Source of the DNA: Hadesarchaea archaeon
Lineage (GTDB): Archaea; Hadarchaeota; Hadarchaeia; Hadarchaeales; WYZ-LMO6
NCBI GenBank assembly: GCA_029259185.1
Contig: JAPDJF010000054.1
Span: 1 to 39,589 of the forward strand
Direction: 5' to 3'
DNA: 39,589 nucleotides
In this document: piece after piece, positions 15,078-29,565 of the stretch
How the letters are laid out: every line of letters starts with the position of its first letter
Numbering within the stretch: position 1 is the first letter of the stretch
Made by a program: the position numbers and the translations under genes
The notes under the pieces: generated by a model
Told to the model about the DNA's origin: nothing
Seen by the model: the letters and a program-made list of their open reading frames with translations, nothing else
The model's database searches: none

Positions 15078-15204
15078 CTCTGTGCCGTTAACTCGTTCTG
15101 CAGTCTTTTATAGGAGGTAAGCTAGAGCAAGGAGTTTGGTTCAGTTACCTCTACGGGGTTTTTGGAGAAAGTTTTTGAGAGTCCAGAGGCTTATCTAATT
15201 TAGT

Positions 15205-15306
15205 AGCCCCGTGGGGTAGGCCGCTTTACGGTTAGGCGGGCCCAATGGTCAATCCTGCGAGGCTCTGGACCTCGCGACTCCGGTTCGAATCCGGACGGGG
15301 CTACCA
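15205..15306 (+). tRNA. tRNA-Gln(CTG) with one D-loop intron (15220-15245)
   Basis: AGCCCCG/CGGGGCT plus ACCA; CGAGG-CT-CTG-GA-CCTCG; TCCGG-TTCGAAT-CCGGA; 26-nt BHB intron at position 15/16. Confidence 0.93.
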
Positions 15307-15401
15307 CTTGGGATAGTTTCGGTGGATGAATAGTTCCCCCTAGCCGAAGATCATTCCTACTTCCACTTTCAGGTGCAGGAAATCTGAATCGGTCGCCGAG
15401 T

Positions 15402-15648: not shown

Positions 15649-16356
15649 CTAGGTATAAAAGCAGTCCGAGGCCTCCCACTCGTATCTTCCCACCCAACTC
15701 TTCGAGAGGATTCGAGAGATACCCGGCAGATGACCGGCCCCCACCACACAAACGATTTTGCCATCCGTTTTGGTGAGGAGAAGTGAAATCTTCTCAGCCA
15801 TGTACCAATCTCTTTCCTTGATGAGCACTTCGTACATAGTTTTCGAGATCTTCTTCACCTCCCGGAGGATTCGTTCCACCGTTTCTTCCTCGGTGAACTT
15901 CTCTAAATCCAATCTCCTGCCTATGGGTAACATGGCTGTTGAGAGCATAACCAGTAGCTTCATTTTTTCGATAGTACCCATTCTCGAAATGAGCTTTTCC
16001 ATGGTGGTTCGAAAGCTTTGGTCTATGAACTCGATTCTAGCCCCAACTTCGCGAGCCGCCTCTGCAGCTGTTATCATTTCCCTTCCAGCCGGAGTTCCGG
16101 TGTGGCGAGACAGGTAGTTTTGCAGGTAGTGCATGAGGCGCCAGAGTATCGGTATAGAGGTCTTTTGATCGATCATTTCGTTGCTTGATGGCTGGGAGGC
16201 ACCCCTCCTCAACATGTCATATCGTTCTTGGCATAGTTCTAAGCCCACGACGGCAGGCTTTTCCTTCTTTATGATTTCTTCGACTTCTCTCGAACTCTGA
16301 GGAAAAATGTGCGCGACCCCGACAAGGAACAGCTTGTTTCCTACTCTCTTCAACAC
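15649..16356 (-). CDS. TraB/GumN family protein
   Basis: LVGVAH, VGLELCQER, GREM, LIKERDWYMA, VVGAGHLPGI. Confidence 0.9.
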   Translation of the reverse strand: MLKRVGNKLFLVGVAHIFPQSSREVEEIIKKEKPAVVGLELCQERYDMLRRGASQPSSNEMIDQKTSIPILWRLMHYLQNYLSRHTGTPAGREMITAAEAAREVGARIEFIDQSFRTTMEKLISRMGTIEKMKLLVMLSTAMLPIGRRLDLEKFTEEETVERILREVKKISKTMYEVLIKERDWYMAEKISLLLTKTDGKIVCVVGAGHLPGISRILSKSWVGRYEWEASDCFYT

Positions 16357-17006
16357 TTCGAACCCCTAGGACGATAAGTGAGGAGTAGATCCTCCCCGAC
16401 CCTCGAAATTCTTAAGAGCTCCAGCTTTATCCCTTCATTCACTCTAAAAAAACCCTCCCCTCCCACCAGCGTTTTGGCCTCGGTGCCTCCCACAATGCGG
16501 GGGGAGATCGCTATCCTTATCTCGTCCACGAGCCCCCTGCTGAGCATGGCCCAGTTAAGGGTTGAGCCACCCTCAAGAAGGAGTCTCCGAACTCCCCTTT
16601 CGTAAAGCTTCTTGAGGAGGAGGGCCAAATTTACTTCGTCCCTTCCGACCTGGATCACTTCGGCCCCCACCTTTTGTAGATTCTTCACTTTGTCTCTTCT
16701 CGCCCTCCGGGAGACCGCCACAATCGTTTTTGATGAATTATCCAATGCTTTTGCACCCGGTGGAACTCTGGCCGTTCCATCGATTATCACCCTCATCGGG
16801 TTCTTTCCTTTGGCCCTCCTCACGGTGAGGGAGGGATCATCTGCCAGCACCGTGCCGGCACCAACCATCACGGCATCCACACTGGCCCTGAGCTTATGGA
16901 GCCTATCTAAATCTTTAGAACATGAGATTCGACTGTCCCCCCCCTTTGTGGCTATTTTTCCATCGAGTGTCATCGCGGCGTTCATGATGACGTATGGGCG
17001 AGGCAT
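16350..17006 (-). CDS. arfC: 2,5-diamino-6-ribosylamino-4(3H)-pyrimidinone 5'-phosphate reductase (archaeal RibD-reductase)
   Basis: AMTLDGKIAT, DAVMVGAGTVLADDPSLTVR, LLLEGGSTLN. Confidence 0.9.
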   Translation of the reverse strand: MPRPYVIMNAAMTLDGKIATKGGDSRISCSKDLDRLHKLRASVDAVMVGAGTVLADDPSLTVRRAKGKNPMRVIIDGTARVPPGAKALDNSSKTIVAVSRRARRDKVKNLQKVGAEVIQVGRDEVNLALLLKKLYERGVRRLLLEGGSTLNWAMLSRGLVDEIRIAISPRIVGGTEAKTLVGGEGFFRVNEGIKLELLRISRVGEDLLLTYRPRGSKC

Positions 17007-17184
17007 TCATTTTCATTTCGGTGTTTCAATCTTTAATTCCATCGGGGGGCAGTGTTTGGAAGCTTTGTTCGAATGAGTCCTCAAATAACCCAATAACAGT
17101 CAAGGACGACGAAGCACCTTTTGGATAGGGGTTCTAGTAAATATTCGTGGCTTAAGGATTTAGGGGGAACGCCAAGTTACTCTG

Positions 17185-17933
17185 ATGCTGGTCTCCAAAA
17201 CCGTGAGGGCTGAACCGCACGGCCTCACGAGAAGCGAGCTGAGGGGAACTGGAAGACCTCCAAGCGTGGGATCGCGCCCAAGAGGGACTACAAGAAGCTG
17301 AGGGAGCAGACTAGGCTATCCTCCTACTATAGGTCGCTCAGTTGGAAGGCAAAAGACGGGCGCAAATCCCCTATTCTCCTCGATAAGGACGCATTCAAGA
17401 TCGTGGAGACCGACAATAAATTTGCCCGGTTTTTCATCTCGATCCCGACCCCCAGGCAGGATTTGGTGCCCCCTGCGGATGCGGAAAAACCACGAGCGCC
17501 TGTTAGTCCAAGGGGGGAGGTTTCGGACTCCCAGATCACCAAGCGCGGGGGGAAGTTCTTCCTCCATCTGGTCGTTAAACGAGAGGTCAAGCTGACGCTT
17601 CGCTCGTCCGTCCCGCAGTGGACTTGGGGGAGCGCTTTCTCGCGGCGTCTGTGGTGCTGTCGGAGGAGGCCAACATCACCTCCCCCAAGCTCTACGGGAA
17701 GGAAGCAAGGGGAGTGAGGCGTCATTGCGCGTGGCTCCGAAAGCGGCTTGGAGAAACGAAGGGCGAAGGGTCTCGAGCTTCTTCAAATGCCTATCGTGCG
17801 GCCTAGAGTACAACGCCGATCTCAACGGAGCCGTAAACATAGGAAAGAGGTTCGCCGACCATTGGTTGGCGGACGGGGCACTAGGGTTCGTGCCCTTGAG
17901 GGAGGATCCCAGCTACCTCCCAAGGTAAGTCAC
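17185..17933 (+). pseudogene. tnpB: Degraded IS200/IS605-family TnpB with right end
   Basis: Fragments in several frames: MLVSKTVRA, KFFLHLVVKREV, VDLGERFLA (RuvC I), FKCLSCGLEYNADLNGAVNIGKR (Zn finger/RuvC III). Internal deletion and frameshifts; ends in TCAC at 17933. Confidence 0.88.
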
Positions 17934-17954
17934 GAATACTTACCAGAACTGGAT

Positions 17955-17969
17955 AGTTAAGGTTTATAT
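17955..17969 (+). repeat. Left target-site duplication (15 bp)
   Basis: AGTTAAGGTTTATAT, identical to 27526-27540. The TSD/TIR boundary is ambiguous by 1 nt each side (13-15 bp). Confidence 0.92.
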
Positions 17970-18173
17970 TTTTTACATTATTTGCATTTTCGACCCCAAC
18001 TTTATGCCATCTGAAGGTAGATAACATACGTTTTAGCCAATCAGAGCACTTATTGAGCGGCGAACAACGAAATACGGATTAAACAGTCCTTTTTCAATTT
18101 TTACGTTACCTATTCTTCCTCCTTTCGGCTTCGACCAAAACCCCGAAAATCGAATTAGGGTCAGGATTTGGGT
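17970..18173 (+). repeat. Left terminal inverted repeat (204 bp)
   Basis: TTTTTACATTATTTGC...AGGATTTGGGT is the exact reverse complement of 27322-27525 (compared by eye). Confidence 0.95.
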
Positions 18174-18202
18174 TCAGAGTAGCTTATTGGGGTTATGAAG
18201 TT

Positions 18203-18553
18203 ATGAAGCAACATTTATTAAAGTCAAAAATCACATGCAATGGGGTGTCAGGAATTCAAGTCCCAATCCCTCCCGAATACGCCTGGTTGATTCCAATCGT
18301 CGTGCCTTTTATAATCGGTCTGCTCGTGGGGACAATAATCAAAAAAGTCATAAAGTTGGCTTTGGCTGTAGTAGCTTTAATAATCGTTTTAGTCGCCACC
18401 GGATCCATGACCATGACTTTTGAAGACCTGTGGGGTAAAGCGATGGAATTCCTGCCTAAGTTGTACGAATCGGGTGAGGGATACTTAGACGTTTTGCCGT
18501 ACACATCCGCAACGTTTTTGATCGGCCTTGCGCTGGCGCTTTGGAAAGCTTAA
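18203..18553 (+). CDS. Small membrane protein (casposon cargo)
   Basis: Two to three hydrophobic segments; start uncertain. Confidence 0.65.
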   Translation: MKQHLLKSKITCNGVSGIQVPIPPEYAWLIPIVVPFIIGLLVGTIIKKVIKLALAVVALIIVLVATGSMTMTFEDLWGKAMEFLPKLYESGEGYLDVLPYTSATFLIGLALALWKA

Positions 18554-18577
18554 AAATAAGAAATGTGAGGAATAAAT

Positions 18578-18838
18578 TTGCCTATTGATATGAAAGATGT
18601 TGAAAAAACTGTGATGAGTTGGATAAGATCTAGGTATAAAAATGTTAGAGCTATACGGATTACCAAGATATGGAGAGAGCAGGACTTTTGGAGCGTCGAT
18701 GTAGAATTCGAGATTCCGACCGAAACCACATTTGGCTTTGACCCGCTTTTGCCTGCAAGTCTCAGGTCGCGGGGGATAAAACGTATGCGTAGGTTTCAAG
18801 TGGATAGATCAAGCGGGGAGGTTATAGGGGTTAAATAG
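18578..18838 (+). CDS. Small hypothetical protein, possibly PepSY-like fold
   Basis: WSVDVEF...FQVDRSSGEVIG pattern; SD-like GAGG before TTG. Confidence 0.55.
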   Translation: MPIDMKDVEKTVMSWIRSRYKNVRAIRITKIWREQDFWSVDVEFEIPTETTFGFDPLLPASLRSRGIKRMRRFQVDRSSGEVIGVK

Positions 18839-18922
18839 AAATTGTCGGAAATTCAGATTCAATCCTCTCGAAACTATTGCCATAAAAATAATAAGGTTAA
18901 GATTAACATAAATGGTGATTTC

Positions 18923-19516
18923 ATGAAAATAATCGGAGTTTTTAAAGAATTGGATGAAAATGAAAAATTAATTTTCGAAAGTAAAGTAGTAACTCCAACG
19001 ATCTTCGTCAAGGAAGCCGAAGTTAAAAAATTAATCGGAAGAGAAAGACGGGAAATCCCTATTTCTTTCTCTGCTACCAATCTTTACTTAACAAACAAAC
19101 GGCTTTCTTTTCTTATTTTGTACCAGCTTGAAGCGAGGACAATTTCAGAGAGTGGGGCTCCAAAATTAAGTGGAGTTGCTGGCACATGGTTTGAAATTCC
19201 AGTAAGCGCAATATCTTCAGCTGACATAAGACCCGTATTTCTAAAATCATTTGAAAAAGAAGTTGACATGAAAAGGCTTGTCGAGTGGGGGGTAATAAAA
19301 AAAGAAATGGCGGAGAGAGCATCAGCCGTCGAACTGATTTATAGCGAAGAGGATGCTGTTGGTAGAATTAAAGATTATATGCAATCTTTGTTAAAAATGG
19401 GTTTCTGGGGTAAAATTTTTAAAAAAATTGAAAGAGTATCAGATAAATTAATGATAGTAGGCGAAGAAGCAACAACAATAGTTCCCTCAATAAAAGGCTT
19501 GATAAAGAAACAGTAA
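18923..19516 (+). CDS. Hypothetical protein with possible PH/GRAM-like domain
   Basis: LDENEKLIF...NLYLTNKRLSF...FEIPVSAISS pattern; ATG at 18923 after GGTGA. Confidence 0.6.
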   Translation: MKIIGVFKELDENEKLIFESKVVTPTIFVKEAEVKKLIGRERREIPISFSATNLYLTNKRLSFLILYQLEARTISESGAPKLSGVAGTWFEIPVSAISSADIRPVFLKSFEKEVDMKRLVEWGVIKKEMAERASAVELIYSEEDAVGRIKDYMQSLLKMGFWGKIFKKIERVSDKLMIVGEEATTIVPSIKGLIKKQ

Positions 19517-19656
19517 TCTCTAAAAAATCTTAATGAGCTTTTGTTCCCAAGCACTTAAAAACGGTTCGAAATATGTTGAGGTGGTAGTTTTTCTGGCAAT
19601 TTTAATCTAGAGATTTGCTGGCCTATATCAGTAGGGGGGCGTTGGAGAAGTTAGAT

Positions 19657-20004
19657 TCATAGAACTTCATCTTCAAAAGGAATCCCAAACTCTTGTTTTA
19701 GGAAATTCTTCAGATAATATTTCAGACCTCCATCCTTTTTCAGCAGTTCAATAAGCTTGTCTTCCTCCTCGTGTTTTGAGGTCTCAACCTTCTGCTTCTC
19801 CAACTCCTCTTGTAGGATCTTTCGAATGAGGGGTTCGATGTCTGACCTCGCTTTATCCCTTGGTCGGGCTTTGTATCTCCCTTCGTCATGATCGCTTATC
19901 CGATGCTTTTCGACTTCCCACGCTGCTTGACAACACCTAAAGTAATGTTTTCCCCTCGTTTGGTGCAATTTGCCACATAAGGGACACTTAACTATCTTTT
20001 TCAT
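19657..20004 (-). CDS. Zinc-ribbon protein (casposon)
   Basis: VKCPLCGK...YFRCCQ; ATG at 20004 after GGTGA, with an alternative ATG at 20079. Confidence 0.65.
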   Translation of the reverse strand: MKKIVKCPLCGKLHQTRGKHYFRCCQAAWEVEKHRISDHDEGRYKARPRDKARSDIEPLIRKILQEELEKQKVETSKHEEEDKLIELLKKDGGLKYYLKNFLKQEFGIPFEDEVL

Positions 20005-20100
20005 GTCTTTTTCACCATTTTTGGCACGGATAAACTGGTCTTTTCCATACCCTTTGGGTAAAAAATACCTCTTTTTCATGTCTTTTTGATGGTTTTTGCA

Positions 20101-20190
20101 GCGATATGCCTACATTATCCTCAATATGTCGTGATTTTCTTACATTTGACGCAATTTTCCGAGATTTGACAAGATTTGATGTCATTAGTA
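20101..20190. repeat. Degenerate 10-bp-period array (9 units)
   Basis: gcgATatgcc tacATtatcc tcaATatgtc gtgATtttct tacATttgac gcaATtttcc gagATttgac aagATttgat gtcATtagta. Confidence 0.6.
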
Positions 20191-20195
20191 CACCT

Positions 20196-22157
20196 CTAAA
20201 ATTCTGTGGCATAAGCGCATTCATGGCACTCCGGAGCAACGCAAAGCTCCTTCCGCTTCAAAGCTTCGCTTGCTGTCAAACCGCAAGGCTTGATCTCATT
20301 TTCCCAGTTTATCCAAAGCCTTCTCGGCCTGGTCTCCATAACTCTGGCCCTTTTCTTTTGCCTGATCGCTTCTCTGACTTTGGTCATGTGCTTAGCTATG
20401 TATTCGTTTGACTTGTCCCTGTAAAGCCTGAGCAGTTCTATGACGTTTCCCCAGAAACCGTGCAAGGCGTATTTCGGGAAGAACTTCCACGTGTCTTTGG
20501 GATGAGTCTTCAAATGCTCTTCAATTCGGTCAAGATTTTTTCTTGACCACGCCCTTAGATCCCCTCCAAATTCTCCCATCACTTCCTTTTGAATCTCCTC
20601 CGAAAACATGACGTAGAGCTTGGGTCTAATCAAGAGGAGCAAGCCACGATGCTCGCGCTTCAGTTCGCCAAGACCCGAACCAGTCGGTATGTCGTTTCTC
20701 CTCGTCTTGAACGAATCTGTAGCACAGTCTACCGCTTCGTATCGGTGCAAATCTTCATGAAGCTTGGCCCTGCACATCGAGGTTATCCAAGATCCAACAT
20801 GGGGGAGGTAGATGCCACCGGCGCGGTAAAGGATCCTGTTTCTAACACACCGCTTTAGTCTCTCATCCCAGATAAGCTCAGGCTCCTCTTCGTAATCCGT
20901 TTGCCTGATCGCTTGGTATGTTTTGCCGTAGAGGGAGTTCAACAAGAGTTTATACATTTGATAGCGTGGATCATCTTCAGGTGTTTCTTGCTTTAGACGG
21001 TAAAATTCTTCCACGTAGTCTTTGAACGGATTTTCTGCACGGTTGGAAGGAACCCAGACATACCCTTTGACCTTTGCTAAGTCTATTTCGTCATGCTTCA
21101 GGGCTTCCCTTAGTTCATAAGAGACAACTGGCGCACGCCTTACGTGTTCATCGTTGGCAAACTCGAAGTTATTGGCGTTCTTCAGGATTATCGGATACTT
21201 GCACTTATTCACATAACCATCAACCAAATAGAACCCTTCAAACTCATCAACGAAATCATTAACCTTCAGCCATTTGCCCTCGGTCAAAGGTGGCAAATTC
21301 GCCATTGCCCAAGGGTAAAAGGAGTTATAATCGTAATAGTTCACGTCTGGGATTACCGCTATTCCATCAACAAAGGTGCTCGCCCTCCCGCCATGTATCG
21401 ATTGTTCGGCAAGCCGCCTAACCCAAGAGGGAACTTGCGGGATCTTGGTTTTTAGAAAGTGCTTCTTGAAAACTTTGGAAGCGAACTGAGAAGCCGAGAC
21501 CGATATTGCTGTATCATAACGCTTGTGCATGTCCAAGATGTATTGGGCTAAATCATATGTGGCTAAAATTTCGACTCTGCAATAACGGTAGAGGTCTTGC
21601 CATTCACTTCGTGTTTTAGGTTTCTTACCTTCTCTGACGAATTCGGGCCTTATCCCCTTTTGATGATTCAGGTTTAACTTTCTGGATATTTCGTAAAGTG
21701 AACCTCGAACAAAAGAGCCCGTATCGATAACTTTGATGTAAGCTCCATTTCTCAATCCTATTCTAGCGAACCAGACCTTTTGAGAATAGATTTTTTCAAA
21801 CGTGCCAAGTGGGTGTTCAAGTTTTGGTGGGTTCAAATATCGAAATAATTCATCTTCCTTTTCGCACAGAACAGCCGTTAGGTCAAACTGCAGGTTGTGG
21901 GCAAATAATAAATTTGTTCGGTGGTTGGCGCATCTCTGGCTCAGATATCTCATGAATTCGTCTAAAACAGTTCTTTGAGTTACCCTGATGTAAGCCGGTC
22001 TGATCCCATCGTGAAACGTTAAGAGATAAGGAATGCCGTCCTCAGTTTCCGTGTCAAATACCATGAGGTTGACGTTTCTCGGAAAAGAATTTCTTAGCGG
22101 TTTTACTCCACCAGCAAGATACCTGGGCAATTCAACCGATTTATCCATGTCTACCAC
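20196..22157 (-). CDS. polB: Family B DNA polymerase, protein-primed type (casposon)
   Basis: Exo I FDTET, Exo II AHNLQFDL, SIHGGR, motif A YDYNSFYP, motif B KLLLNSLYGK, motif C variant CATDS, RPKLY. Size and motif layout resemble phi29/linear-plasmid polymerases. Confidence 0.9.
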   Translation of the reverse strand: MVDMDKSVELPRYLAGGVKPLRNSFPRNVNLMVFDTETEDGIPYLLTFHDGIRPAYIRVTQRTVLDEFMRYLSQRCANHRTNLLFAHNLQFDLTAVLCEKEDELFRYLNPPKLEHPLGTFEKIYSQKVWFARIGLRNGAYIKVIDTGSFVRGSLYEISRKLNLNHQKGIRPEFVREGKKPKTRSEWQDLYRYCRVEILATYDLAQYILDMHKRYDTAISVSASQFASKVFKKHFLKTKIPQVPSWVRRLAEQSIHGGRASTFVDGIAVIPDVNYYDYNSFYPWAMANLPPLTEGKWLKVNDFVDEFEGFYLVDGYVNKCKYPIILKNANNFEFANDEHVRRAPVVSYELREALKHDEIDLAKVKGYVWVPSNRAENPFKDYVEEFYRLKQETPEDDPRYQMYKLLLNSLYGKTYQAIRQTDYEEEPELIWDERLKRCVRNRILYRAGGIYLPHVGSWITSMCRAKLHEDLHRYEAVDCATDSFKTRRNDIPTGSGLGELKREHRGLLLLIRPKLYVMFSEEIQKEVMGEFGGDLRAWSRKNLDRIEEHLKTHPKDTWKFFPKYALHGFWGNVIELLRLYRDKSNEYIAKHMTKVREAIRQKKRARVMETRPRRLWINWENEIKPCGLTASEALKRKELCVAPECHECAYATEF

Positions 22158-22929
22158 CTTTCGCCTTGATGACCTTTGGCTTGCGTTCAGGCGAGAGGAA
22201 AGTCAGGGCGATTATCCGCTCGATTACGAAAGGTGCTCTCCGGTATTGCTCAGCCAAAATATCGGGCATGTTCTCCTTCGCCCAAGCGTAGATCTCATCG
22301 AAGTCAACGGGCTTGTCTGAATACCTGATTTGAGTTGTGTTGATGAAATAGACATCCGATTGTTCAACGATGAAGTAAGCTCCAACGGTTGTGAACTTTC
22401 CTCTCGGGTTTCTCTTTCTATCGGAACAAACAAGTGTTCTGGGATTGATGAACTTAAAACGTGGATATGCGATGTTTCCGAAGCGATAGATTCTGTTAAG
22501 CTTATCGATGTATTTTTGTGTTGGAATCCATTCTCTTTCCGGCTTTGGGAATCTCGGCCTCTCAACAGACGGCTTCCTCCCTCTCTTCCTCAGCCCCTTC
22601 AAGCCGTACTCCCTGATTTTCCGCTTGATGGTGGACTCAGAAACTCGGTAATAGCGGGCTATGGCTTCGGTCTTTTTGTCCTGCTTAAGAAATCGCTTAA
22701 GTTCCTGTTTCGTGATCCGCTTCGGCTTTCTGACCCTGATTTTCGGCTTGGGTTTCCCCCTGAGTTTAGCTTTGAGCCTCCGAACCTCTGATTTAAGTGT
22801 CCGAATCTCGGCCTCAAGCTCGGCAACGCTTTTATGCTTTACTCGCAATTTTTTCTTATGGGGATTGCCGACTAGGGAAGGTTGTCTTCGCTTCCTAGCC
22901 ATTGGGGGAGATGGGATGGCTTTCTTCAT
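22141..22929 (-). CDS. Highly basic coiled-coil plus HTH protein, coupled to polB
   Basis: K/R-rich N-terminus; TEAIARYYRVSESTIKRKIREYGL HTH; overlaps the polB start. Confidence 0.8.
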   Translation of the reverse strand: MKKAIPSPPMARKRRQPSLVGNPHKKKLRVKHKSVAELEAEIRTLKSEVRRLKAKLRGKPKPKIRVRKPKRITKQELKRFLKQDKKTEAIARYYRVSESTIKRKIREYGLKGLRKRGRKPSVERPRFPKPEREWIPTQKYIDKLNRIYRFGNIAYPRFKFINPRTLVCSDRKRNPRGKFTTVGAYFIVEQSDVYFINTTQIRYSDKPVDFDEIYAWAKENMPDILAEQYRRAPFVIERIIALTFLSPERKPKVIKAKGGRHG

Positions 22930-23129
22930 CGGATATCCCCTTTTTTGACTTGTTCTCTGATCAAGGAGAGATCCGAGAGAAATGCATACAGCGCAGTTCT
23001 GACTACTTCAGCCTGAGAACATTGCAATCTTTGAGACGCTTCTTCTACTGCACGTTTTAATCCACTTGGAACTACTAGGTCAAGCACAGGTTTTGGAGAC
23101 TTCCACGATTTTTTTGTATTCATGATCAT
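22926..23129 (-). CDS. Ribbon-helix-helix (CopG-like) protein
   Basis: VLDLVVPSGLKRAVEEASQRLQCSQAEVVRTAL. Probable ATG at 23129 or 23123 downstream of a TATA at about 23151-23160; ATGA overlap with the next gene. Confidence 0.75.
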   Translation of the reverse strand: MIMNTKKSWKSPKPVLDLVVPSGLKRAVEEASQRLQCSQAEVVRTALYAFLSDLSLIREQVKKGDIR

Positions 23130-23220
23130 CAAAAACAAGTTCACGTAAGTCTTATATAGACCTTTAAGGTAATTACTCGATGGGTATGATATATACCCGA
23201 CGCAAAACATTGGTGATATA

Positions 23221-24138
23221 GTGCCTAAGAAAATCGAGAACCCACTGCGGGAAGGCCTGCCCTCTAAGATTTATTTGTTATCCTACTGTGAACCTCTTAC
23301 CGCCTATGAGATAGCTAAAAGAATTTATGGAGTAAAGCCCCCCCATATTCCGCCTACTTCTAAAGTTTCGACTTGGGTAAAGAAAATGAAGGAAAATGGG
23401 ACCCTTTCCGAGAATGAGGAAAAGAAAACTTATGCCCGAGTTGACCCTCTAATAGTTGAAATTGAAAGCACCCTGAAAGAACACGATGTTGAGCTATCCG
23501 ATTTTGAAAAACATATGATCTCTCGTCTCTTGGATTCCCAAGAATTCAGATGGCTTGTTAAGAAATTGATGCCCCCAATGAGTTATGATATCGACTCGGC
23601 TTGGATTATCATGAACCATCTTGCACTTGTGGCTTCTGTGCGGGTTCTTAGAGAAAAGATGCCAGAAGTTCCACAGCTGGAAACACCAAGGGGCTTTATC
23701 CAAAAACATGCAGGAAAATTAGAGGAAACCAGAGAATTTAGGAGTCTGGAAAAGATTGGGCGCTTTCCATCAAAAGAGTCAGAGTTTGATGAAAGACTGA
23801 AAATTCTCAGAAGGTTTTGGGAAACGAAGGAATTCAGGGAACTTACATCTGAAATAACCGAATTGCTTAAAGAAGCGGAAGTTTTTGGGGATCTCTCGGA
23901 CGAAGAAGTTTTAGAATTTTTCAAACTTGACCTGTTGCTAAGATCGATTCCAATTTCAACTTTGGAGAAACTCACCAATTTGGGTTTTTTAAACAGATTG
24001 ATATCAATACCCGCGCTAGCAGGGTTTGACTTCTTCCCCTTTCATCGGTTGGAGAGAGTATTAGAAAGAGAAGTAAATCGAATGAAGACACGTGAAAGGA
24101 AGAAGCTTTTGAAAAATTCCGGAGTGGAAAAAATCTAG
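23221..24138 (+). CDS. Winged-HTH protein upstream of cas1
   Basis: EPLTAYEIAKRIYG...SKVSTWVKKMKENGTL; helical C-terminal region of unknown function. Confidence 0.75.
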   Translation: MPKKIENPLREGLPSKIYLLSYCEPLTAYEIAKRIYGVKPPHIPPTSKVSTWVKKMKENGTLSENEEKKTYARVDPLIVEIESTLKEHDVELSDFEKHMISRLLDSQEFRWLVKKLMPPMSYDIDSAWIIMNHLALVASVRVLREKMPEVPQLETPRGFIQKHAGKLEETREFRSLEKIGRFPSKESEFDERLKILRRFWETKEFRELTSEITELLKEAEVFGDLSDEEVLEFFKLDLLLRSIPISTLEKLTNLGFLNRLISIPALAGFDFFPFHRLERVLEREVNRMKTRERKKLLKNSGVEKI

Positions 24139-24152
24139 AACGAGGTGAGAAC

Positions 24153-25139
24153 ACGCAGATAATCCTTAACGAGTTCGGCCAGTATCTCGGAAGCGACAAG
24201 GAGAACTTCATCGTTTACAAAGACAACAATCCGATAAAACGCATCCCATTTTACAAGGTGAAACAAATCATCTTGACACCGGGCAACACGGTTTCGACTT
24301 CGGCTTTGTTCTGGTGCTCGATTTACGGGATCAACCTAATGATGACCTCAAATACAGGAAGACCTCTAAGCATGATGTTGCCTTTAACTTCGAGCGCGCA
24401 TGTCAAGACAAGGATAAAGCAGTATGAAGCCTATTACAACTCAAAAGGTGTTGAAATTGCGAAGGCGCTTCTGACCACCAAAGTCAACAACCAAATCGCA
24501 CTGCTTGAAAAATACGGGTTTGATGGCCACAAGCTTGATTATCTCGTGGAAAAGCTTCAAAGAATCGATGGAGAAAAGGTCGATGACGTAAGGCCAAGAC
24601 TGATGGGGATAGAATCGAGGTGTTCAAAAGTCTATTTCAGAAATCTCAAGACCCTGTTTCCAGATTTCTTGCAAACATCAAAGCGAATGAAATACAAAGC
24701 CGAAGACCCCCTGAACAATTTGCTAAATCTTGGCTATGAAGTCCTGAAGGGAGAAGTTTACAGGGGCGTGATGTATGCCCACCTAGATCCATACTTAGGT
24801 TATCTGCATTCAATCCAGTTTGCTAAGCCATCTCTGGTTTGCGATATTCAAGAGGTCTTCAGAGGTCTGATTGACGAGTTTCTAATCAGATACGCTCAGA
24901 AGTTAAGTGAGAACGATTTCGAAAACAAAAACGGAAGGATGTTCTTGAAGCAGAAGGAGAGCTATAAGCTGATAGAAGCTGTCAACAGGCTTTTCGACAA
25001 GCGGATCAAGCACCAGAGGATAAAGAAATACGGAGAGCACTCGAAGATAAGAACGGCAATAAGGGAGGAGCCGATAAAACTAGGTCAGTACTTGAGGGAC
25101 GAAAAGAAAAAGTATGAACCAGTTGTGATGCCAAGATAA
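24153..25139 (+). CDS. cas1: Casposase (stand-alone Cas1 integrase)
   Basis: LMGIESRCSKVYF, DPLNNLLNLGY, LDPYLGYLH, SLVCDIQEVFR (catalytic E/H/D-E). The frame extends 35 codons upstream of the track start to ACG-QIILNEFGQYLG behind SD GAGGTGA. Confidence 0.95.
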   Translation, partial: TQIILNEFGQYLGSDKENFIVYKDNNPIKRIPFYKVKQIILTPGNTVSTSALFWCSIYGINLMMTSNTGRPLSMMLPLTSSAHVKTRIKQYEAYYNSKGVEIAKALLTTKVNNQIALLEKYGFDGHKLDYLVEKLQRIDGEKVDDVRPRLMGIESRCSKVYFRNLKTLFPDFLQTSKRMKYKAEDPLNNLLNLGYEVLKGEVYRGVMYAHLDPYLGYLHSIQFAKPSLVCDIQEVFRGLIDEFLIRYAQKLSENDFENKNGRMFLKQKESYKLIEAVNRLFDKRIKHQRIKKYGEHSKIRTAIREEPIKLGQYLRDEKKKYEPVVMPR

Positions 25140-25149
25140 TGGTGAAGCC

Positions 25150-25978
25150 ATGAAAAAGCCAACGGTCATCTCCACGTTTACTAAAAAAGGACAAACAGAT
25201 ATAGTAGAAATCATTAGAGGGATATTCGTTATTATTGTTCTTGCTTGGGCTGGGTGGATAATAGCTGGAGTATTTGAATTACAAGAAATCGTTGGGGCGA
25301 TCCTCGTTAGTGCTGGCATTTTAGCCGTTGCGAGCATTGTTGCATATTTAGTTTACATTGTTTTGGGATCTTTAGGCATTGCAGCTGTTGTTTTTCTTTC
25401 CCTAGCTGGGTTGCTCGCAGCAATAGTCTTTGGGGTACCAGCTCTTGTTAATATTGGTATTGGTGTTGGCATCACAGTTATCATAATTCTTTGTGTTTAC
25501 TTCACTTATTAACTGCGGAAATGGATGTTTGAAGCAAGACAACACAAGAAAGGTCTAGTGAAATTTGTTGATAGAAAGGGAAACGAAAGATGGGGGAAGC
25601 CAGAAGAAATAAAAAATGGAAGCAGGAAGATTTTGAACAAGCACAACTCGAAAAGGGATTAGTGAAATATAAAGGGAATTGGGTAACTCTTAAGAAAAGG
25701 AAAATCTGAAGAAAGGTTATGTTAAATATGTAGAAAAACAAAAAGGCGCCTCCAGACCCGATATTGTAATTGACAATATAGGAATAGAAATCAAGGGCCC
25801 CACACGCAGAACAGATCAACTGGACTCGATAGTTAGTAAGTGTATGAGGTACTCCCAACACTTTGAAAAAATAATTTTGGTTTTATTTGATGTAGCCGTT
25901 AGCGAACACTACTACGAGGAGTGGTTAGAAGGATTAAGAAGAAAATATCCCGAAGTAAAAGTGATACGAAAGGATTAA
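25150..25978 (+). pseudogene. Disrupted membrane-anchored PD-(D/E)XK nuclease
   Basis: The multi-TM ORF 25150-25512 continues in frame past TAA (LRKWMFEARQHKKGLVKF). Two frameshifts (about 25615 and 25690) then give EKGLVKYKGNWVT and SRPDIVIDNIGIEIK...MRYSQHFEKIILVLF, with stop at 25978. Confidence 0.7.
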
Positions 25979-25995
25979 AATAACGAAACAGAAAC

Positions 25996-26154
25996 TTGGG
26001 TGATGATGATAAAAATGGTAAAAAAGAAGAGGATATATGTGGACCCCTCACAGGAGAGGTTATTACAGAGTCAAGACGGAAGGTGAGGAAAGATGAATAT
26101 GTTGATATCTGGTCAGGCAGGGTCAAGAGGAGAAAGAAATACTCTCTGTTTTGA
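25996..26154 (+). CDS. Possible 52-aa protein
   Basis: TTG-started frame MGDDDKNGKKEEDICGPLTGEV...YVDIWSGRVKRRKKYSLF fills the intergenic gap; below the track length cutoff. Confidence 0.4.
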   Translation: MGDDDKNGKKEEDICGPLTGEVITESRRKVRKDEYVDIWSGRVKRRKKYSLF

Positions 26155-26180
26155 CTCTTATGACCTGATTAAACAGTTTT

Positions 26181-26744
26181 GTGATCAAAATGTTCGGACT
26201 CACAAGTTTATTCGATGAAGTTCTTCGACTTGTAAACGCATGGAAACCGCAAAAAAGATACAGATCTGAAGATGGTTATAGAGACGAACTAAAAGAATTC
26301 CTTAGGACAAACTTGAATAGATCCAACGCACTCAGCATTGGACCACAAAAGCCGATTAAAGTTGCTTCAGAGTCGGGTAGGCATCTTTGTGATATAGCCG
26401 TTGACGAATCAGTTGGTGTTGAGCTGAAGAAAGATCTCAATAAATTGGCAGAAGTTGATAGGTTGTCTGGACAGTTAAGCAGGTATAAGAAACAATATTC
26501 TGGGATAATTGTTGTATTGGTGGGCAGCACAAATAAAGACGCTTACGCTGAATTGGTGAACCGAGTTTATGAAATGCAGCAAAGCACAGGTATTTCTCTT
26601 GGGTTTACTGCGGGAACAAAAATCAGGGTTGTGGATAAGGGATTTACAGGGGCTGGAGCAGAGAAAACTAGAGTAAAAAACGCACAACCCAAAAGACCGT
26701 ATTGGGTGAACCCTCTTACAGGTAAAAAAGAGCCTTTATTCTAA
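26181..26744 (+). CDS. PD-(D/E)XK restriction-endonuclease-like protein
   Basis: SEDGYRDEL...CDIAVDESVGVELKK...GQLSRY...IIVVLVG. Confidence 0.75.
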   Translation: MIKMFGLTSLFDEVLRLVNAWKPQKRYRSEDGYRDELKEFLRTNLNRSNALSIGPQKPIKVASESGRHLCDIAVDESVGVELKKDLNKLAEVDRLSGQLSRYKKQYSGIIVVLVGSTNKDAYAELVNRVYEMQQSTGISLGFTAGTKIRVVDKGFTGAGAEKTRVKNAQPKRPYWVNPLTGKKEPLF

Positions 26745-26942
26745 AATTGAATTCAACACCTATGCTGAGCCGCCCGCTTTCGCCGACCTCCATCTTTTTA
26801 CGGGGTTTAACGAAGGCTACGAAAACGGGTACACGGATGGCCACAGGCTGGGCTGACACAGAGAGCTAGACATGTTGAACACTGTTTTTTACTTATTTAT
26901 TAGTAAATGAGTAAATGATTTGGATAATTAAGAGGTTCGAAG

Positions 26943-27257
26943 ATGGAACTACATGCACATGGGATAGTGGTATTGACAGCTTTGTGTGTAGCTTTTTTGG
27001 CTTGGTTTGGAGGCGAATTTTTTGCGGGATCCATGATACTCGATGAGGTCGCTGATGAATACTATGAGCGGGGGTATTATGAAGATGCAATAGAGGCGAG
27101 AGATCAGGCAAGGGAAGCCCATGACTATTTCGTCTATTGCATGGCAGGGGTCGTGTTGGTTATCATCGGTGGTGCCGTCTGGGCGTGGAAGTGGGAACAC
27201 GGGCAAATAACCCAGCCCGGGGCGTTCTGGAAGACCGTCGGTGATTTGCGAAAGTGA
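26943..27257 (+). CDS. Two-TM membrane protein (casposon cargo)
   Basis: Two hydrophobic helices flanking an acidic loop; SD GAGGT. Confidence 0.65.
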   Translation: MELHAHGIVVLTALCVAFLAWFGGEFFAGSMILDEVADEYYERGYYEDAIEARDQAREAHDYFVYCMAGVVLVIIGGAVWAWKWEHGQITQPGAFWKTVGDLRK

Positions 27258-27321
27258 GATGGCCACAAAATGACCAAGCCCGTTCTCCAAACCCTAAAAG
27301 CGTTGGCGGAAAATCTGCATG

Positions 27322-27525
27322 ACCCAAATCCTGACCCTAATTCGATTTTCGGGGTTTTGGTCGAAGCCGAAAGGAGGAAGAATAGGTAACGTAAAAATTG
27401 AAAAAGGACTGTTTAATCCGTATTTCGTTGTTCGCCGCTCAATAAGTGCTCTGATTGGCTAAAACGTATGTTATCTACCTTCAGATGGCATAAAGTTGGG
27501 GTCGAAAATGCAAATAATGTAAAAA
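27322..27525 (-). repeat. Right terminal inverted repeat (204 bp)
   Basis: Reverse complement of 17970-18173. Confidence 0.95.
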
Positions 27526-27540
27526 AGTTAAGGTTTATAT
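27526..27540 (+). repeat. Right target-site duplication (15 bp), includes putative BRE/TATA of the next gene
   Basis: AGTTAAGGTTTATAT, ending 30 nt before ATG 27571. Confidence 0.92.
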
Positions 27541-27570
27541 CGTACGTAGCATGCAGAAGCATGGTGGAAG

Positions 27571-27822
27571 ATGATCAGACTCTCCCAAGTTCACGGCCTT
27601 CGGATATATAATGACCGAGCGAGATACGTGGGGAATGTTCGTGATATAGTATTGGACGATGAGGAGGGTAAAGTAGTCGGTCTAGCCTTCGGGCGTAAAG
27701 GAGACACAATTCTGTCAGTCCCTTACGATAGTGTGCTCGCCATAGGTGATATAGTTCTAACCAGAAGTAAGGAATCTGAGCAAGCTGGGGAGGGGGAGGG
27801 GTCTCAAGCCCCCGGGGGATGA
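27571..27822 (+). CDS. PRC-barrel domain protein (CdpB-like cell division protein)
   Basis: LSQVHGLRIYNDRARYVGNVRDIVLD...VPYDSVLAIGDIVL. Confidence 0.85.
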   Translation: MIRLSQVHGLRIYNDRARYVGNVRDIVLDDEEGKVVGLAFGRKGDTILSVPYDSVLAIGDIVLTRSKESEQAGEGEGSQAPGG

Positions 27823-27827
27823 GTTCC

Positions 27828-28949
27828 CTAGAGATAGTTGCTCCCACATGACTTTCGGCTGGGAGTTTGGAGTGGTAATGGTATGAAGGTCACCTCTAGT
27901 TGGTCGAAAGTTGGGTAGTATTCGATCCAAGCGAACTTGAGTCCTTTTTCCTTCTTAGATAAGGTTTCGGCTGTGATCGGATCTAGATCGAGTCTCTTTC
28001 TCTTGAGGTCTACCGATATGAGGTGGTTCGGGATCCTATATTTTCTGATTAACCTTCTTTTCTCTTTGATAAGCTCAAGTCGAGGAATTCCGTAAACGAT
28101 CCCCTTTACGAGAAGCCCCTCCCGGGTGATACGCTCGTACGGTTTCGCTACGTTCTTGGCCCTCCGTTTCAGACGATTTCGGAGTTGTACCCCATCTTTC
28201 AGTGAGCTAGGACAGTAGTGCACGTTCAGGTCAGTATTCTCAGCAGCCCAGTTCAATACCTTCATAGCTAGAGGCTCACTCCCCCTGACCGCGACCGATT
28301 CATCAGATTTTATCTTGAATCCTCGCTTGAGCAGGTTTGTGGAATTGGTTTCCGAAAATTCCAGTTCATTCAAATTAACGAAAAGGCACCCTATCTCGTC
28401 GAGTTCTTTTAGGAGGCGGATCGTCTTCGAAAAATCTCTCGGGATGGCTGGAATTTCAACTCCAGCGTCGAGCCCAATTTTGAGGGCAGATCTCACGGGC
28501 TCTCCAGTCCAAGTGTGGAATCTGAGTTCGTCCAATCCCGCATCCTTCAGTTCCTTGAGTTTTTCGTTAGGAAGTGCTCCGATGCAGTACATGTGCACGT
28601 GGTGTTCCTTCCCGAACTCTCTCTTCAGGAGCTTTAGGTACCGAATGACGCGTTTGAACTTCAGAGCGGGGTTGCCCCCCGTGATCCCTGTCCCCAGGGC
28701 ATCCATCAGTCTAGCTTCCTCGAGGATATCGGCATACGATTTTACCGGTCGCTCGTTAGCGTATACCACATCTTTTCCCCTCCTTTTCTCAGAGAGTGGA
28801 CAGTAATAACACGAGTGATTACAAATTCCGGTGACAAAGAGTACGAGCTTTGCCCCCCGAATGCAGAGCTTGCATCCTTCAGGCATCTCCCGGAGGAGAA
28901 GAGAGTTAGCAGGAGTACGCTTGATCTCCGGTGCCAATTCAGTGTTCAT
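27828..28949 (-). CDS. Radical SAM protein (conserved archaeal, PFL-activase-related)
   Basis: GCKLCIRGAKLVLFVTGICNHSCYYCPLS (CxxxCxxC), GITGGNP, LDELRFH. Confidence 0.9.
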   Translation of the reverse strand: MNTELAPEIKRTPANSLLLREMPEGCKLCIRGAKLVLFVTGICNHSCYYCPLSEKRRGKDVVYANERPVKSYADILEEARLMDALGTGITGGNPALKFKRVIRYLKLLKREFGKEHHVHMYCIGALPNEKLKELKDAGLDELRFHTWTGEPVRSALKIGLDAGVEIPAIPRDFSKTIRLLKELDEIGCLFVNLNELEFSETNSTNLLKRGFKIKSDESVAVRGSEPLAMKVLNWAAENTDLNVHYCPSSLKDGVQLRNRLKRRAKNVAKPYERITREGLLVKGIVYGIPRLELIKEKRRLIRKYRIPNHLISVDLKRKRLDLDPITAETLSKKEKGLKFAWIEYYPTFDQLEVTFIPLPLQTPSRKSCGSNYL

Positions 28950-29025
28950 TTTCAGACCTTTTTTTACTCGGAAGTCTCTCTCCTAACATTTTTAAAACTA
29001 GTGGGTGATTTTATACCTTGATAAA

Positions 29026-29565
29026 ATGCCCAAGCCGAGGGTGGATATAGAGATCCAAAACATAGTACTTTCGGTAGTATACGAAGGTACTACCTTTAAC
29101 TTGGAGAGGTTGGTCAAAGCCCTCGATAACGCGAGATATGATCCCGAAGTCTTTCCAGGAATAGCTTACAAATCAGAGGATCCTCCGGCCTCGTTCCTGA
29201 TTTTCTCTTCGGGTAAAATGAACTGTGTGGGTGCTAAGAGCATGAGGGATGCTAGACTCGCGATAAAAAAGCTCACTAAGAAGCTTAAGAAGGCCGGTGC
29301 TAAAGTGAAGTCTGAGCCCAAGGTTCAAGTCCAGAATATCGTGGCATCGTTTGACTTCAAGAGGGAGTTCGATCTTGAGCAGATATCGAGAACTTATGAG
29401 AACACAGAGTATGAGCCAGAGGTTTTCCCCGGTTTGGTTTTCAGGTTGGAAAAACCGAAAGCTGTAGTTCTCTTATTCGTGTCCGGCAAGGGGGTCTGTG
29501 CGGGAGCAAAGACGATGAAGGATATTGAAGCTGCTGCCAAGATAATAATGAGGACCCTCAAGTAA
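29026..29565 (+). CDS. tbp: TATA-box binding protein
   Basis: Two repeats: IQNIVLS...YDPEVFPG...LIFSSGKMNCVGAKS and VQNIVAS...YEPEVFPGL...LLFVSGKGVCAGAK. Confidence 0.97.
   Translation: MPKPRVDIEIQNIVLSVVYEGTTFNLERLVKALDNARYDPEVFPGIAYKSEDPPASFLIFSSGKMNCVGAKSMRDARLAIKKLTKKLKKAGAKVKSEPKVQVQNIVASFDFKREFDLEQISRTYENTEYEPEVFPGLVFRLEKPKAVVLLFVSGKGVCAGAKTMKDIEAAAKIIMRTLK

What the first reader, a model, noticed from the sequence alone, without database searches (positions are those of the whole stretch)
27526..27571. Casposon target site is a core promoter (BRE/TATA) that the TSD duplicates
The TSD AGTTAAGGTTTATAT contains TTTATAT with a purine-rich upstream segment, 30 nt before the PRC-barrel (CdpB-like) gene. 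The right copy keeps that gene's promoter intact. The left copy (17955-17969) creates a second promoter pointing into the left TIR and the + strand cargo genes. Casposon targets I know include tRNA genes and aEF2, yet two tRNA genes 2.7 kb away were not used. Promoter- or TBP-guided integration would parallel leader-directed spacer insertion by CRISPR Cas1.
Basis: partly seen in the sequence, partly recalled or inferred. Interest (0 to 1): 0.7.

Follow-up and report, generated by a model that had tools for sequence, protein, structure and literature searches.

The report
Casposon landed in a promoter
A self-replicating transposon of a deep-vent archaeon sits in the TATA box of a small gene, but its relatives show that it picks a specific 15-letter DNA word rather than promoters as such.

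Summary
AGTTAAGGTTTATAT occurs exactly twice in the 1.27-Mb genome (17955-17969, 27526-27540). The two copies bracket a 9,556-bp casposon with 204-nt inverted ends, a viral-type PolB and a compact Cas1.

A contig from another sample of the same study joins 17954 to 27526 with a single copy of the 15-mer, so an empty-site allele exists.

The right copy very probably carries the PRC-barrel gene's TATA box. TTTATAT ends 30 nt before the ATG. AGGTTTATATC is conserved upstream of the orthologue in 5 of 5 sister-genus genomes. The position lies in the genome-wide TATA peak. No transcript data exist.

Promoter- or TBP-guided integration is not supported. Every related Hadesarchaeal casposon or remnant I could bound sits next to the same quasi-palindrome, AGTTAAAWTTTAACY, often in tandem arrays. 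In 7 of 10 loci with an identified flanking gene, that gene's 3' end faces the site (ndk, HypF, HycI, fibrillarin and others).

The window's site matches the consensus at 11 of 15 positions. It scores in the top 5.5e-5 of genome positions under a matrix built only from other loci.

Best reading: sequence-specific casposase targeting that here hit a degenerate site overlapping a promoter, which the duplication regenerates. This is a new member of a known kind, of moderate interest.

The parts
17130..17949 (+). Decayed IS200/IS605-type element (TnpB pseudogene in several frames). Its right end lies 5 nt before the left TSD copy.
   Evidence: Pfam Cas12f1-like_TNB hit on the 17725-17928 ORF. Multiple copies elsewhere in the genome; homology with copies on C33 and C24 stops at 17949. 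Repeat boundaries at 17130 and 17949 also appear as loose ends. The empty-site contig already contains 17849-17954, so the IS predates the casposon or its excision.
17955..17969 (+). Left copy of the 15-bp target-site duplication AGTTAAGGTTTATAT. It places a second TATA/BRE-like copy facing into the left TIR.
   Evidence: Exact repeat. Promoter activity here is inferred only.
17970..18173 (+). Left terminal inverted repeat (204 nt), beginning TTTTTACATTATTTGC...
   Evidence: the repeat finder I1, 99% complementary. Termini resemble those of related elements.
18203..19516 (+). Three + strand cargo ORFs (18203-18553, 18578-18838, 18842-19516) with no family match. No TATA-like hexamer lies 25-40 nt before the first one.
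   Evidence: ORF list; Pfam none; PHROGs none for 18842-19516; sequence read.
20196..22157 (-). Family B DNA polymerase of the organellar/viral (protein-primed) type.
   Evidence: Pfam DNA_pol_B_2 E 5.2e-25. PHROG DNA polymerase families E 1.8e-30. 75% nucleotide identity to the L021 casposon. No PDB sequence hit.
22141..22929 (-). 262-aa ORF immediately upstream of polB, the position where terminal proteins of protein-primed systems are usually encoded. Function not shown.
   Evidence: Only sub-threshold Pfam hits (HTH_23, DUF1192). The positional argument comes from PMC4046053 passages.
24153..25139 (+). Casposase (Cas1 homologue), 328 codons if read from 24153. The codon aligned with the ATG start of the 80%-identical relative is ACG here. 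The first standard start codon is the GTG at 24258.
   Evidence: Pfam Cas_Cas1 E 2.9e-52; frame reading; BLASTP 260/323 identical to L021; TIGR00287 cas1 for the L021 protein.
27322..27525 (-). Right terminal inverted repeat (204 nt).
27526..27540 (+). Right copy of the TSD. 27534-27540 TTTATAT is the probable TATA box of the PRC-barrel gene; 27526-27533 AGTTAAGG covers the BRE position.
   Evidence: AGGTTTATATC is conserved in 5 of 5 sister-genus orthologue upstream regions. The hexamer start at -37 lies in the genome-wide peak of -39 to -25. A-rich positions -5 to -3 upstream of such TATA hexamers.
27571..27822 (+). PRC-barrel protein gene (83 aa). Its promoter is regenerated by the right TSD copy.
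   Evidence: Pfam PRC E 1.5e-11. Orthologues found in 38 of 41 related genomes searched.

Best explanation
The window holds a recently mobile casposon of a Hadesarchaea-class archaeon. Its Cas1-type casposase chooses targets by DNA sequence.

The lineage's preferred target is a 15-bp quasi-palindrome, AGTTAAAWTTTAACY. This genome and its family contain no exact copy of its 13-nt core GTTAAAWTTTAAC, and this genome has no 15-mer within 1 mismatch of the consensus. The element integrated instead into a degenerate version, AGTTAAGGTTTATAT, which keeps the AGTTAA end and the central TTTA. That 15-mer happens to be the TATA/BRE region of the PRC-barrel gene.

Staggered cuts 15 bp apart, followed by fill-in, duplicated the 15-mer. 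The right copy therefore leaves the PRC-barrel promoter intact, and the left copy places a second TATA in front of the left TIR.

Shown: the element, the TSD, the empty-site allele, the family-wide target motif, and conservation of the TATA.

Inferred: that the casposase itself reads AGTTAA...TTTA, that the TATA is active, and that the left copy drives transcription into the element.
For: (1) Anatomy: exact 15-bp TSD, 204-nt TIRs, Cas1 and PolB.

(2) Empty site: an X4 contig (3,520 nt) joins 17954 to 27526, skipping 9,571 nt with 15 shared letters. Its flanks show 0 and 1 differences.

(3) Family target:
- All 9 TIR junctions of related elements (L021 x3, L054, L062, L060, L057, L055, L059) abut R/CGTTAA(A/T/G)NNTT(A/G)AC-type 15-mers.
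- L101 is flanked by AGTTAAAATTTAACT and GGTTAAAATTTAACT; L100 by GCTTAAAATTTAAAT.
- GTTAAAWTTTAAC occurs at 46 places in 21 of 65 class genomes, against 3 places for the reversed control, with 0 in this genome and 0 in 5 genomes of its family.
- By eye, about 18 of the 22 sites examined have a TIR-like terminus beside them.

(4) Fit of the window site to a model built without it:
- Within 4 mismatches of the consensus, as are only 179 of about 1.27 million positions.
- PWM from 6 other loci: 140 of 2,534,236 strand positions score as high, 5.5e-5.
- The shared core AGTTAANNTTTA occurs at only 4 distinct pre-insertion places in the genome. That motif was chosen post hoc.

(5) Repeated use of one site: tandem arrays in L021 and L101.

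(6) Context is not promoter-specific: gene 3' ends face the site in 7 of 10 loci. These are ndk 0 nt, HycI +8, integrase -14, ADI +15, HypF +17, IDH -37 and fibrillarin +55.

(7) Precedent: sequence-specific casposase targeting with conserved terminal TSD nucleotides and an AT-rich remainder is published for M. mazei (PMC4779613 passages), A. boonei (PMC6614799 section 11) and N. koreensis (PMC8464041 abstract).
Against: - The window site is not the best match in its genome. 114 distinct positions score at least as well under the PWM, 46 of them in crude intergenic DNA. Two sites lie within 2 mismatches of the consensus. Sequence alone therefore does not explain why this site was used.
- Two of 10 loci (window +30, L121 +28) put the 15-mer at the canonical TATA distance from a gene start. 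A third (L114) lies 51 nt before a gene.
- The ndk site lies in the ndk-infB intergenic region, which holds infB's promoter in other genera.
- For most remnants only one flank is known.
- Many related sites come from one genus (g9) and may share ancestry, so they are not independent.
- No biochemical data exist for this casposase. In this copy its start codon position reads ACG.
- The PWM rests on only six sequences.
Confidence: 0.8

Rival explanations
1. Promoter- or TBP/TFB-guided integration. The casposase is directed to core promoters by the bent, factor-bound TATA/BRE DNA, as IHF and the leader direct Cas1-Cas2. The shared motif would then be only a promoter consensus.
For: - The window's TSD covers a conserved TATA at a typical promoter distance.
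- L121's TSD lies 28 nt before a PIN-ATPase gene start, and L114's empty site lies 51 nt before druA.
- The consensus has an AT-rich centre that contains TATA-like hexamers (TTTTAA on one strand).
- 113 other distinct positions with an equal or better sequence score are not flanked by this element's TIR, which occurs only at 17970 and 27525 in this assembly.
Against: - The best-conserved positions are the AGTTAA and TTAAC arms, which no TATA/BRE model requires.
- This genome has at least 106 ORF upstream regions with a TATA hexamer at the right distance. Yet the site used is one of only 4 places in the genome with AGTTAANNTTTA.
- In 7 of 10 loci the identified flanking gene presents its 3' end to the site.
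- The sister genus's equivalent promoter matches the consensus at only 7 of 15 positions (my count).
Confidence: 0.07
2. Loose targeting plus survivorship. The casposase needs little more than an AGTTAA end and AT-rich DNA. The sites observed are those where the duplication regenerates a functional element (a promoter here, a stop codon or 3' end elsewhere), so that the insertion is harmless and persists.
For: - The right TSD copy restores the PRC-barrel promoter.
- In genus g9 the ndk reading frame ends inside the TSD.
- Coding DNA is about 88% of the genome by a crude ORF call, yet all bounded insertions are intergenic or at gene ends.
- In A. boonei, two-thirds of the TSD can be deleted without loss of targeting (PMC6614799 abstract and section 11).
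Against: - Both arms of the palindrome, not only one, are conserved in nearly all relatives. That points to direct recognition of most of the 15-mer.
- Tandem re-use of one site is what site-specific integration predicts.
- Selection cannot be separated from preference with these data.
Confidence: 0.1

Closest known systems
Family 1 casposons of Thaumarchaeota (e.g. NitAR1-C1 of Ca. Nitrosopumilus koreensis)
   Same: - Viral/organellar-type (protein-primed class) PolB.
- Compact Cas1 without an added HTH domain.
- An ORF directly upstream of polB.
- TIRs and a TSD of similar size (13 bp there, 15 bp here).
- Sequence-specific targeting with key nucleotides inside the TSD.
Sources: PMC4046053 passages; PMC8464041 abstract.
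   Different: - The host is a Hadesarchaea-class archaeon.
- The target is an intergenic quasi-palindrome, not the 3' end of the aEF-2 gene.
- Whether the Cas1 branches with family 1 was not tested, because no family 1 sequence was at hand.
Family 2 casposons (MetMaz-C1 of Methanosarcina mazei; AciBoo-C1 of Aciduliprofundum boonei)
   Same: - 14-15-bp TSD.
- Intergenic as well as tRNA targets.
- Conserved nucleotides at one end of the TSD with an AT-rich remainder (CGCA + AT-rich in M. mazei).
- Tandem arrays at one site.
- Natural or experimental empty sites with a single TSD copy.
Sources: PMC4779613 passages; PMC10359463 passages.
   Different: - Family 2 Cas1 carries a C-terminal HTH, and the elements carry HNH and RNA-primed-type PolB (PMC4046053). 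None of these was found here.
- A. boonei needs a leader motif 8 bp upstream of the TSD (PMC6614799 section 11). I saw no conserved sequence outside the 15-mer here, by eye.
Leader-directed spacer integration by CRISPR Cas1-Cas2
   Same: Homologous integrase. Staggered attack on the two ends of a fixed-length segment, which becomes duplicated (the repeat there, the TSD here).
   Different: No CRISPR array, cas2 or other cas gene family appeared in the Pfam scans of 14 ORFs inside the element. No evidence was found for a host bending factor or promoter-like leader in target choice.

Membership tests
Casposon (superfamily) | Cas1-family integrase encoded inside the element | tested here: met
   Pfam Cas_Cas1 E 2.9e-52. 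TIGR00287 E 1.7e-61 for the 80%-identical relative. PDB Cas1 and M. mazei casposase 6opm hits.
Casposon (superfamily) | Family B DNA polymerase inside the element | tested here: met
   Pfam DNA_pol_B_2 E 5.2e-25; PHROG DNA polymerase.
Casposon (superfamily) | Terminal inverted repeats flanked by a target-site duplication | tested here: met
   204-nt TIRs at 99%. Exact 15-bp TSD. Empty-site contig with one copy.
Casposon family 1 | Protein-primed-type PolB | tested here: met
   Met at Pfam level only: PF03175 'organellar and viral'. No PDB sequence hit and no phylogeny.
Casposon family 1 | Compact Cas1 without extra domains | tested here: met
   328-334 aa. The only Pfam domain is Cas1. Nine NCBIfam hits, all Cas1 models.
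Casposon family 1 | Cas1 clusters with thaumarchaeal family 1 Cas1 in a tree | not tested
   No family 1 reference sequence was fetched.
Casposon family 1 | Target at the 3' end of the aEF-2 gene | tested here: not met
   Targets here are intergenic AGTTAAAWTTTAACY sites at many loci.
Casposon family 2 | C-terminal HTH fused to Cas1; HNH endonuclease gene | tested here: not met
   No HTH or HNH family reached threshold among the element's ORFs. The casposase is about 100 aa shorter than 6opm.
Archaeal core promoter (BRE/TATA) at 27526-27540 | TATA-box sequence at promoter distance from the gene | tested here: met
   TTTATA starts at -37 from the ATG. The peak of TATA hexamer starts lies at -39 to -25 for 954 crude ORFs of this genome.
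Archaeal core promoter (BRE/TATA) at 27526-27540 | Conservation upstream of orthologues | tested here: met
   CCGTCAGGTTTATATC in 5 of 5 sister-genus genomes, ending 22 nt before the ATG, with diverged flanks. 11 nt are shared with the window. The 14 more distant orthologue loci examined carry other upstream motifs.
Archaeal core promoter (BRE/TATA) at 27526-27540 | Transcription start about 23-26 nt downstream of the TATA | not testable with these tools
   No RNA run holds this DNA.
Promoter/TBP-guided integration | Related elements sit at TATA boxes of diverse promoters without shared non-TATA sequence | tested here: not met
   Related TSDs share the AGTTAA/TTAAC arms. In 7 of 10 loci a gene's 3' end faces the site; in 2 of 10 the site is at canonical TATA distance.

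The most novel reading that the evidence does not exclude
Promoter architecture licenses integration at degenerate half-sites. The casposase reads only one AGTTAA arm plus AT-rich DNA. At sites that lack the second arm, such as this one, TBP/TFB-bent or nucleosome-free promoter DNA substitutes for it. That would be a host-factor-assisted mode parallel to IHF-assisted Cas1-Cas2 integration at CRISPR leaders. As a by-product, the duplicated TATA would give the element a ready-made promoter for its + strand cargo.
Probability: 0.08. Interest if true: 0.7.

Novelty: new member of a known kind. Interest (0 to 1): 0.35.

Why it matters
Casposons are the presumed ancestors of the CRISPR adaptation module, and only a few have defined targets.

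This lineage adds three things:
- A Hadesarchaeal host.
- A family-1-like gene set (viral-type PolB, compact Cas1) outside Thaumarchaeota.
- A symmetric 15-bp target used again and again, together with a natural occupied/empty polymorphism.

It also gives a clean natural example of how a TSD can regenerate a core promoter, so that an insertion into a TATA box need not silence the gene.

It does not open a new targeting principle. The promoter overlap is best read as incidental.

Tried and rejected
- Transcript evidence: the look-up of sequencing runs listed no RNA holder. The predicted starts near 27563-27566 and 17991-17995 could not be checked.
- ARAGORN found no tRNA although two tRNA-like sequences are visible.
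- The bacterial sigma-70/terminator scan of the left end is not informative for an archaeon.
- The first cargo ORF (18203-18553) has no similarity to the first ORF of the L021 element.
- PolB gave no PDB sequence hit, so the protein-primed assignment rests on Pfam only.
- I first read the sister-genus TATA as lying at the same 30-nt distance as in the window. Recounting showed 22 nt there.
- I tried to decide whether the ndk-proximal target in genus g9 was once the infB promoter. The remnants are too decayed to tell.
- I tried to find both ends of the decayed relatives. Only one end was found for L054, L055, L057, L059, L060, L062 and L063.
- Where the roughly 97%-identical variant casposon of run X4 is inserted could not be determined, because contigs are not retrievable.
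- Literature checks:
  - 'casposon' + 'Hadesarchaea' returned 1 paper, unrelated by its title.
  - 'casposon' + 'TATA' returned 7 papers. Judged from titles and abstract starts only, none treats a target site as a promoter.
  - 'promoter' occurs 0 times in the main texts of PMC4779613 and PMC10359463.
Supplementary file S2 of PMC4779613 lists the intergenic target coordinates and could bear on whether such targets overlap promoters.
- Papers seen:
  - PMC4779613, PMC10359463 and PMC4046053: passages.
  - PMC6614799: abstract and section 11.
  - PMC8464041: abstract and outline.
  - PMC5137440 and PMC6977970: search listing only.
- 'CdpB-like' for the PRC-barrel gene, and the figure of about -26 for TATA-to-start distance, are recalled and come from no call.

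Full report
THE OBSERVATION

The string AGTTAAGGTTTATAT is present exactly twice in the window, at 17955-17969 and 27526-27540. No further copy exists within two mismatches, and none of 100 shuffles gave two matches. It occurs nowhere else in the 54-contig, 1.27-Mb genome. The bases just outside differ on both sides, so the repeat is exactly 15 bp.

Between the copies lie inverted repeats of 204 nt at 99% identity (17970-18173 and 27322-27525). The repeat finder reports 210 nt because the repeat runs 6 nt into the partly palindromic duplication.

The 9,556-bp element encodes:
- a family B polymerase of the organellar/viral Pfam type (20196-22157, minus strand);
- a Cas1 homologue (Pfam E 2.9e-52).

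None of the other 12 ORFs inside the element that I scanned matched a cas, HNH or HTH family above threshold. G+C is 37-49% inside the element in 500-nt windows, against 52% for the genome. This is a casposon.

EMPTY SITE

Four public DNA runs of one study hold the stretch. When they were laid on 16001-29500, run X4 contained a 3,520-nt contig that joins 17954 directly to 27526. It skips 9,571 nt, and 15 letters fit either side. Its flanks show 0 and 1 differences.

The same population therefore carries an allele with a single copy of the 15-mer. This is either the pre-insertion state or a precise excision. In M. mazei, excision also leaves one copy (PMC10359463 passages).

X4 also holds a variant casposon, about 97% identical over the polB-cas1 core but with different cargo segments.

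The empty-site contig already carries the right end of a decayed IS200/IS605 (TnpB) element. That element ends at 17949, 5 nt before the 15-mer.

IS THE 15-MER A PROMOTER?

TTTATAT (27534-27540) ends 30 nt before the ATG of an 83-aa PRC-barrel gene. Three lines of evidence support a TATA box.

1. Sister-genus conservation. In the five genomes of the sister genus, the orthologue is preceded by an invariant CCGTCAGGTTTATATC embedded in diverged sequence. Eleven nucleotides (AGGTTTATATC) are shared with the window. The spacing there is 22 nt, a leaderless geometry, not 30 nt. The 14 more distant orthologue loci examined carry other upstream motifs.

2. Genome-wide position. Across 954 crudely called ORFs of this genome, starts of TATA-like hexamers pile up between -39 and -25 from the start codon. 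The window's hexamer starts at -37.

3. BRE-like context. Positions -5 to -3 upstream of such hexamers are A-rich (41-49% A in 106 cases). The window has A at -4 and -3.

No RNA run exists, so no transcript start is known.

The left TSD copy necessarily carries the same TATA and BRE positions, and it faces the left TIR. The first + strand ORF (18203) has no TATA-like hexamer of its own at the usual distance. That the left copy drives cargo transcription is plausible but purely inferred.

WHAT RELATED ELEMENTS SHOW

I searched with the casposase in three places:
- a genome collection;
- the 65 genomes of the class;
- a metagenome collection.

These gave two full-length relatives with both ends (L021, 80% identical Cas1, from a MAG titled Hadesarchaea; L101), one with a left end (L100), and many decayed remnants.

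In one search, all nine TIR junctions from relatives abut a 15-mer of one type:
- AGTTAAAATTTAACT and GGTTAAAATTTAACT (L021);
- AGTTAAGATTTAACT (L054);
- AGTTAAAAATTAACC (L062);
- AGTTAAATTTTAACC (L055, L060);
- AGTCAAATTTTAACC (L057);
- AGTTAAATTTTAACG (L059).

L063 adds AGTTAAAATTCAACC. L101 is flanked by AGTTAAAATTTAACT and GGTTAAAATTTAACT. L100 is flanked by GCTTAAAATTTAAAT. L021 and L101 are parts of tandem arrays in which successive elements or remnants share one 15-mer.

The 13-nt core GTTAAAWTTTAAC occurs at 46 places in 21 of the 65 genomes, against 3 places for the reversed control. It occurs nowhere in the window's genome or in the five genomes of its family. By eye, about 18 of 22 such sites have a casposon-like terminus beside them.

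One site (L114) looks empty. It lies 14 nt after a tyrosine-integrase gene and 51 nt before a druA gene, at the locus that is occupied in L021.

DOES THE WINDOW'S SITE BELONG TO THIS TARGET CLASS?

It matches the consensus at 11 of 15 positions (AGTTAA..TTTA..T).
- Only 179 of about 1.27 million positions in the genome come within 4 mismatches in either orientation, the two TSD copies included.
- Under a weight matrix built from six other loci, 140 of 2,534,236 strand positions score as high, a fraction of 5.5e-5.
- The core shared with nearly all relatives, AGTTAANNTTTA, occurs at just four distinct pre-insertion places. I chose that motif after seeing the data.

Against a purely sequence-driven choice, 114 distinct positions score at least as well, 46 of them in crude intergenic DNA. 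Two sites lie within two mismatches.

ARE THE RELATIVES' SITES PROMOTERS?

I could name a flanking gene at ten loci (Pfam; distances).

A gene's 3' end faces the 15-mer at seven loci:
- ndk, where the reading frame ends inside the 15-mer in genus g9;
- HycI, +8;
- integrase, -14;
- an arginine-deiminase-family gene, +15;
- HypF, +17;
- isocitrate/isopropylmalate dehydrogenase, -37;
- fibrillarin, +55.

A gene start lies downstream at four loci:
- PRC-barrel, +30 (the window);
- a PIN-ATPase gene, +28 (L121);
- druA, +51 (L114, also counted above for its integrase flank);
- primase large subunit, +92.

Two of ten loci thus have the canonical TATA geometry.

Three caveats apply:
- For most remnants only one flank is known.
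- The ndk site lies between ndk and infB, where other genera have infB's TATA.
- Many sites come from one genus.

Even so, the common denominator is the sequence, not the promoter geometry.

MECHANISM

The best-supported account is sequence-specific casposase targeting of a 15-bp quasi-palindrome. Staggered cleavage at its two ends and fill-in then produce the duplication.

In a genome without an exact copy of the palindrome's 13-nt core or any 15-mer within 1 mismatch of the consensus, the element used a degenerate site that retains one arm and the central TTTA. The AT-rich centre of the target resembles a TATA box, which makes occasional promoter hits unsurprising.

Because the whole TATA/BRE lies inside the 15-mer, the right copy restores the PRC-barrel promoter. 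This is the promoter analogue of TSDs that restore tRNA or gene 3' ends.

This parallels published casposases:
- conserved terminal TSD nucleotides plus an AT-rich remainder in M. mazei (PMC4779613 passages);
- a leader motif plus a dinucleotide at the TSD border in A. boonei (PMC6614799 section 11);
- key TSD nucleotides and a ruler motif in N. koreensis (PMC8464041 abstract).

A symmetric target with both arms conserved, and no obvious conserved flank, differs from the asymmetric A. boonei site. Whether a leader-like flank exists was judged only by eye.

FAMILY PLACEMENT

The viral-type PolB, the compact Cas1 (328-334 aa, no HTH) and an ORF just upstream of polB match the published definition of family 1 (PMC4046053 passages). 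The family 2 hallmarks (Cas1-HTH fusion, HNH) were not found. The family 1 target (aEF-2) is not used, and no tree was built. I file the element as a casposon with family-1-like architecture in a Hadesarchaeal host.

VERDICT

- The promoter identity of the 15-mer is well supported but not shown by transcripts.
- The idea that promoters or TBP guide integration is not supported.
- The element is a new member of a known kind.
- Interest is moderate. It rests mainly on the defined palindromic target, the tandem arrays and the natural empty site.

Noticed in passing
window 14958-15078 and 15203-15308: Two tRNA-like sequences have matching acceptor ends (GTAGCCCC...GGGGCTACCA), each with roughly 45-50 extra nucleotides inside, possibly introns at unusual positions. 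ARAGORN finds none. Rfam finds only a partial tRNA at 15012-15074.
   Followed up: partly
window 24153-24155: The casposase reading frame is open from 24153, but the codon aligned with the ATG start of the 80%-identical relative is ACG. The first standard start codon (GTG, 24258) would drop 35 conserved N-terminal residues. This copy may be poorly translated or disabled although its TIRs are 99% alike.
   Followed up: partly
window 17130-17949 and G000 contigs C1, C3, C4, C9, C15, C24, C33, C34: A family of IS200/IS605-type TnpB elements and fragments. Copies on C33 and C24 share the right end ...CTTACCAGAAC. The copy in the window is broken into several frames with an internal gap.
   Followed up: partly
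window 29005-29565: The genome's TBP gene (Pfam TBP, E 2.3e-53) lies only about 1.5 kb downstream of the insertion site. This looks like a coincidence, with no evident link.
   Followed up: no
run X4 laid on window 19665-25129: A 9,507-nt contig carries a variant casposon about 97% identical over polB-cas1. It lacks similarity at 18251-19600 and about 25130-26930, so the cargo differs. Its insertion site is unknown.
   Followed up: no
L114 565-2885; L021 2671-3576: One recurrent casposon target lies between a tyrosine-integrase gene and a Druantia druA gene, that is, at the edge of what looks like another integrated element or defence island.
   Followed up: no
L055, L057, L060, L066-L079 (ndk 3' ends): In many genomes of genus g9 the ndk reading frame is extended by about 12 codons and ends inside the casposon target 15-mer. 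Casposon remnants fill the space up to infB.
   Followed up: partly
L021 13562-14300; L101 1488-1620 and 12182-12316: Tandem arrays: full casposons are followed by short TIR-bearing remnants, each separated by one copy of the 15-mer.
   Followed up: partly
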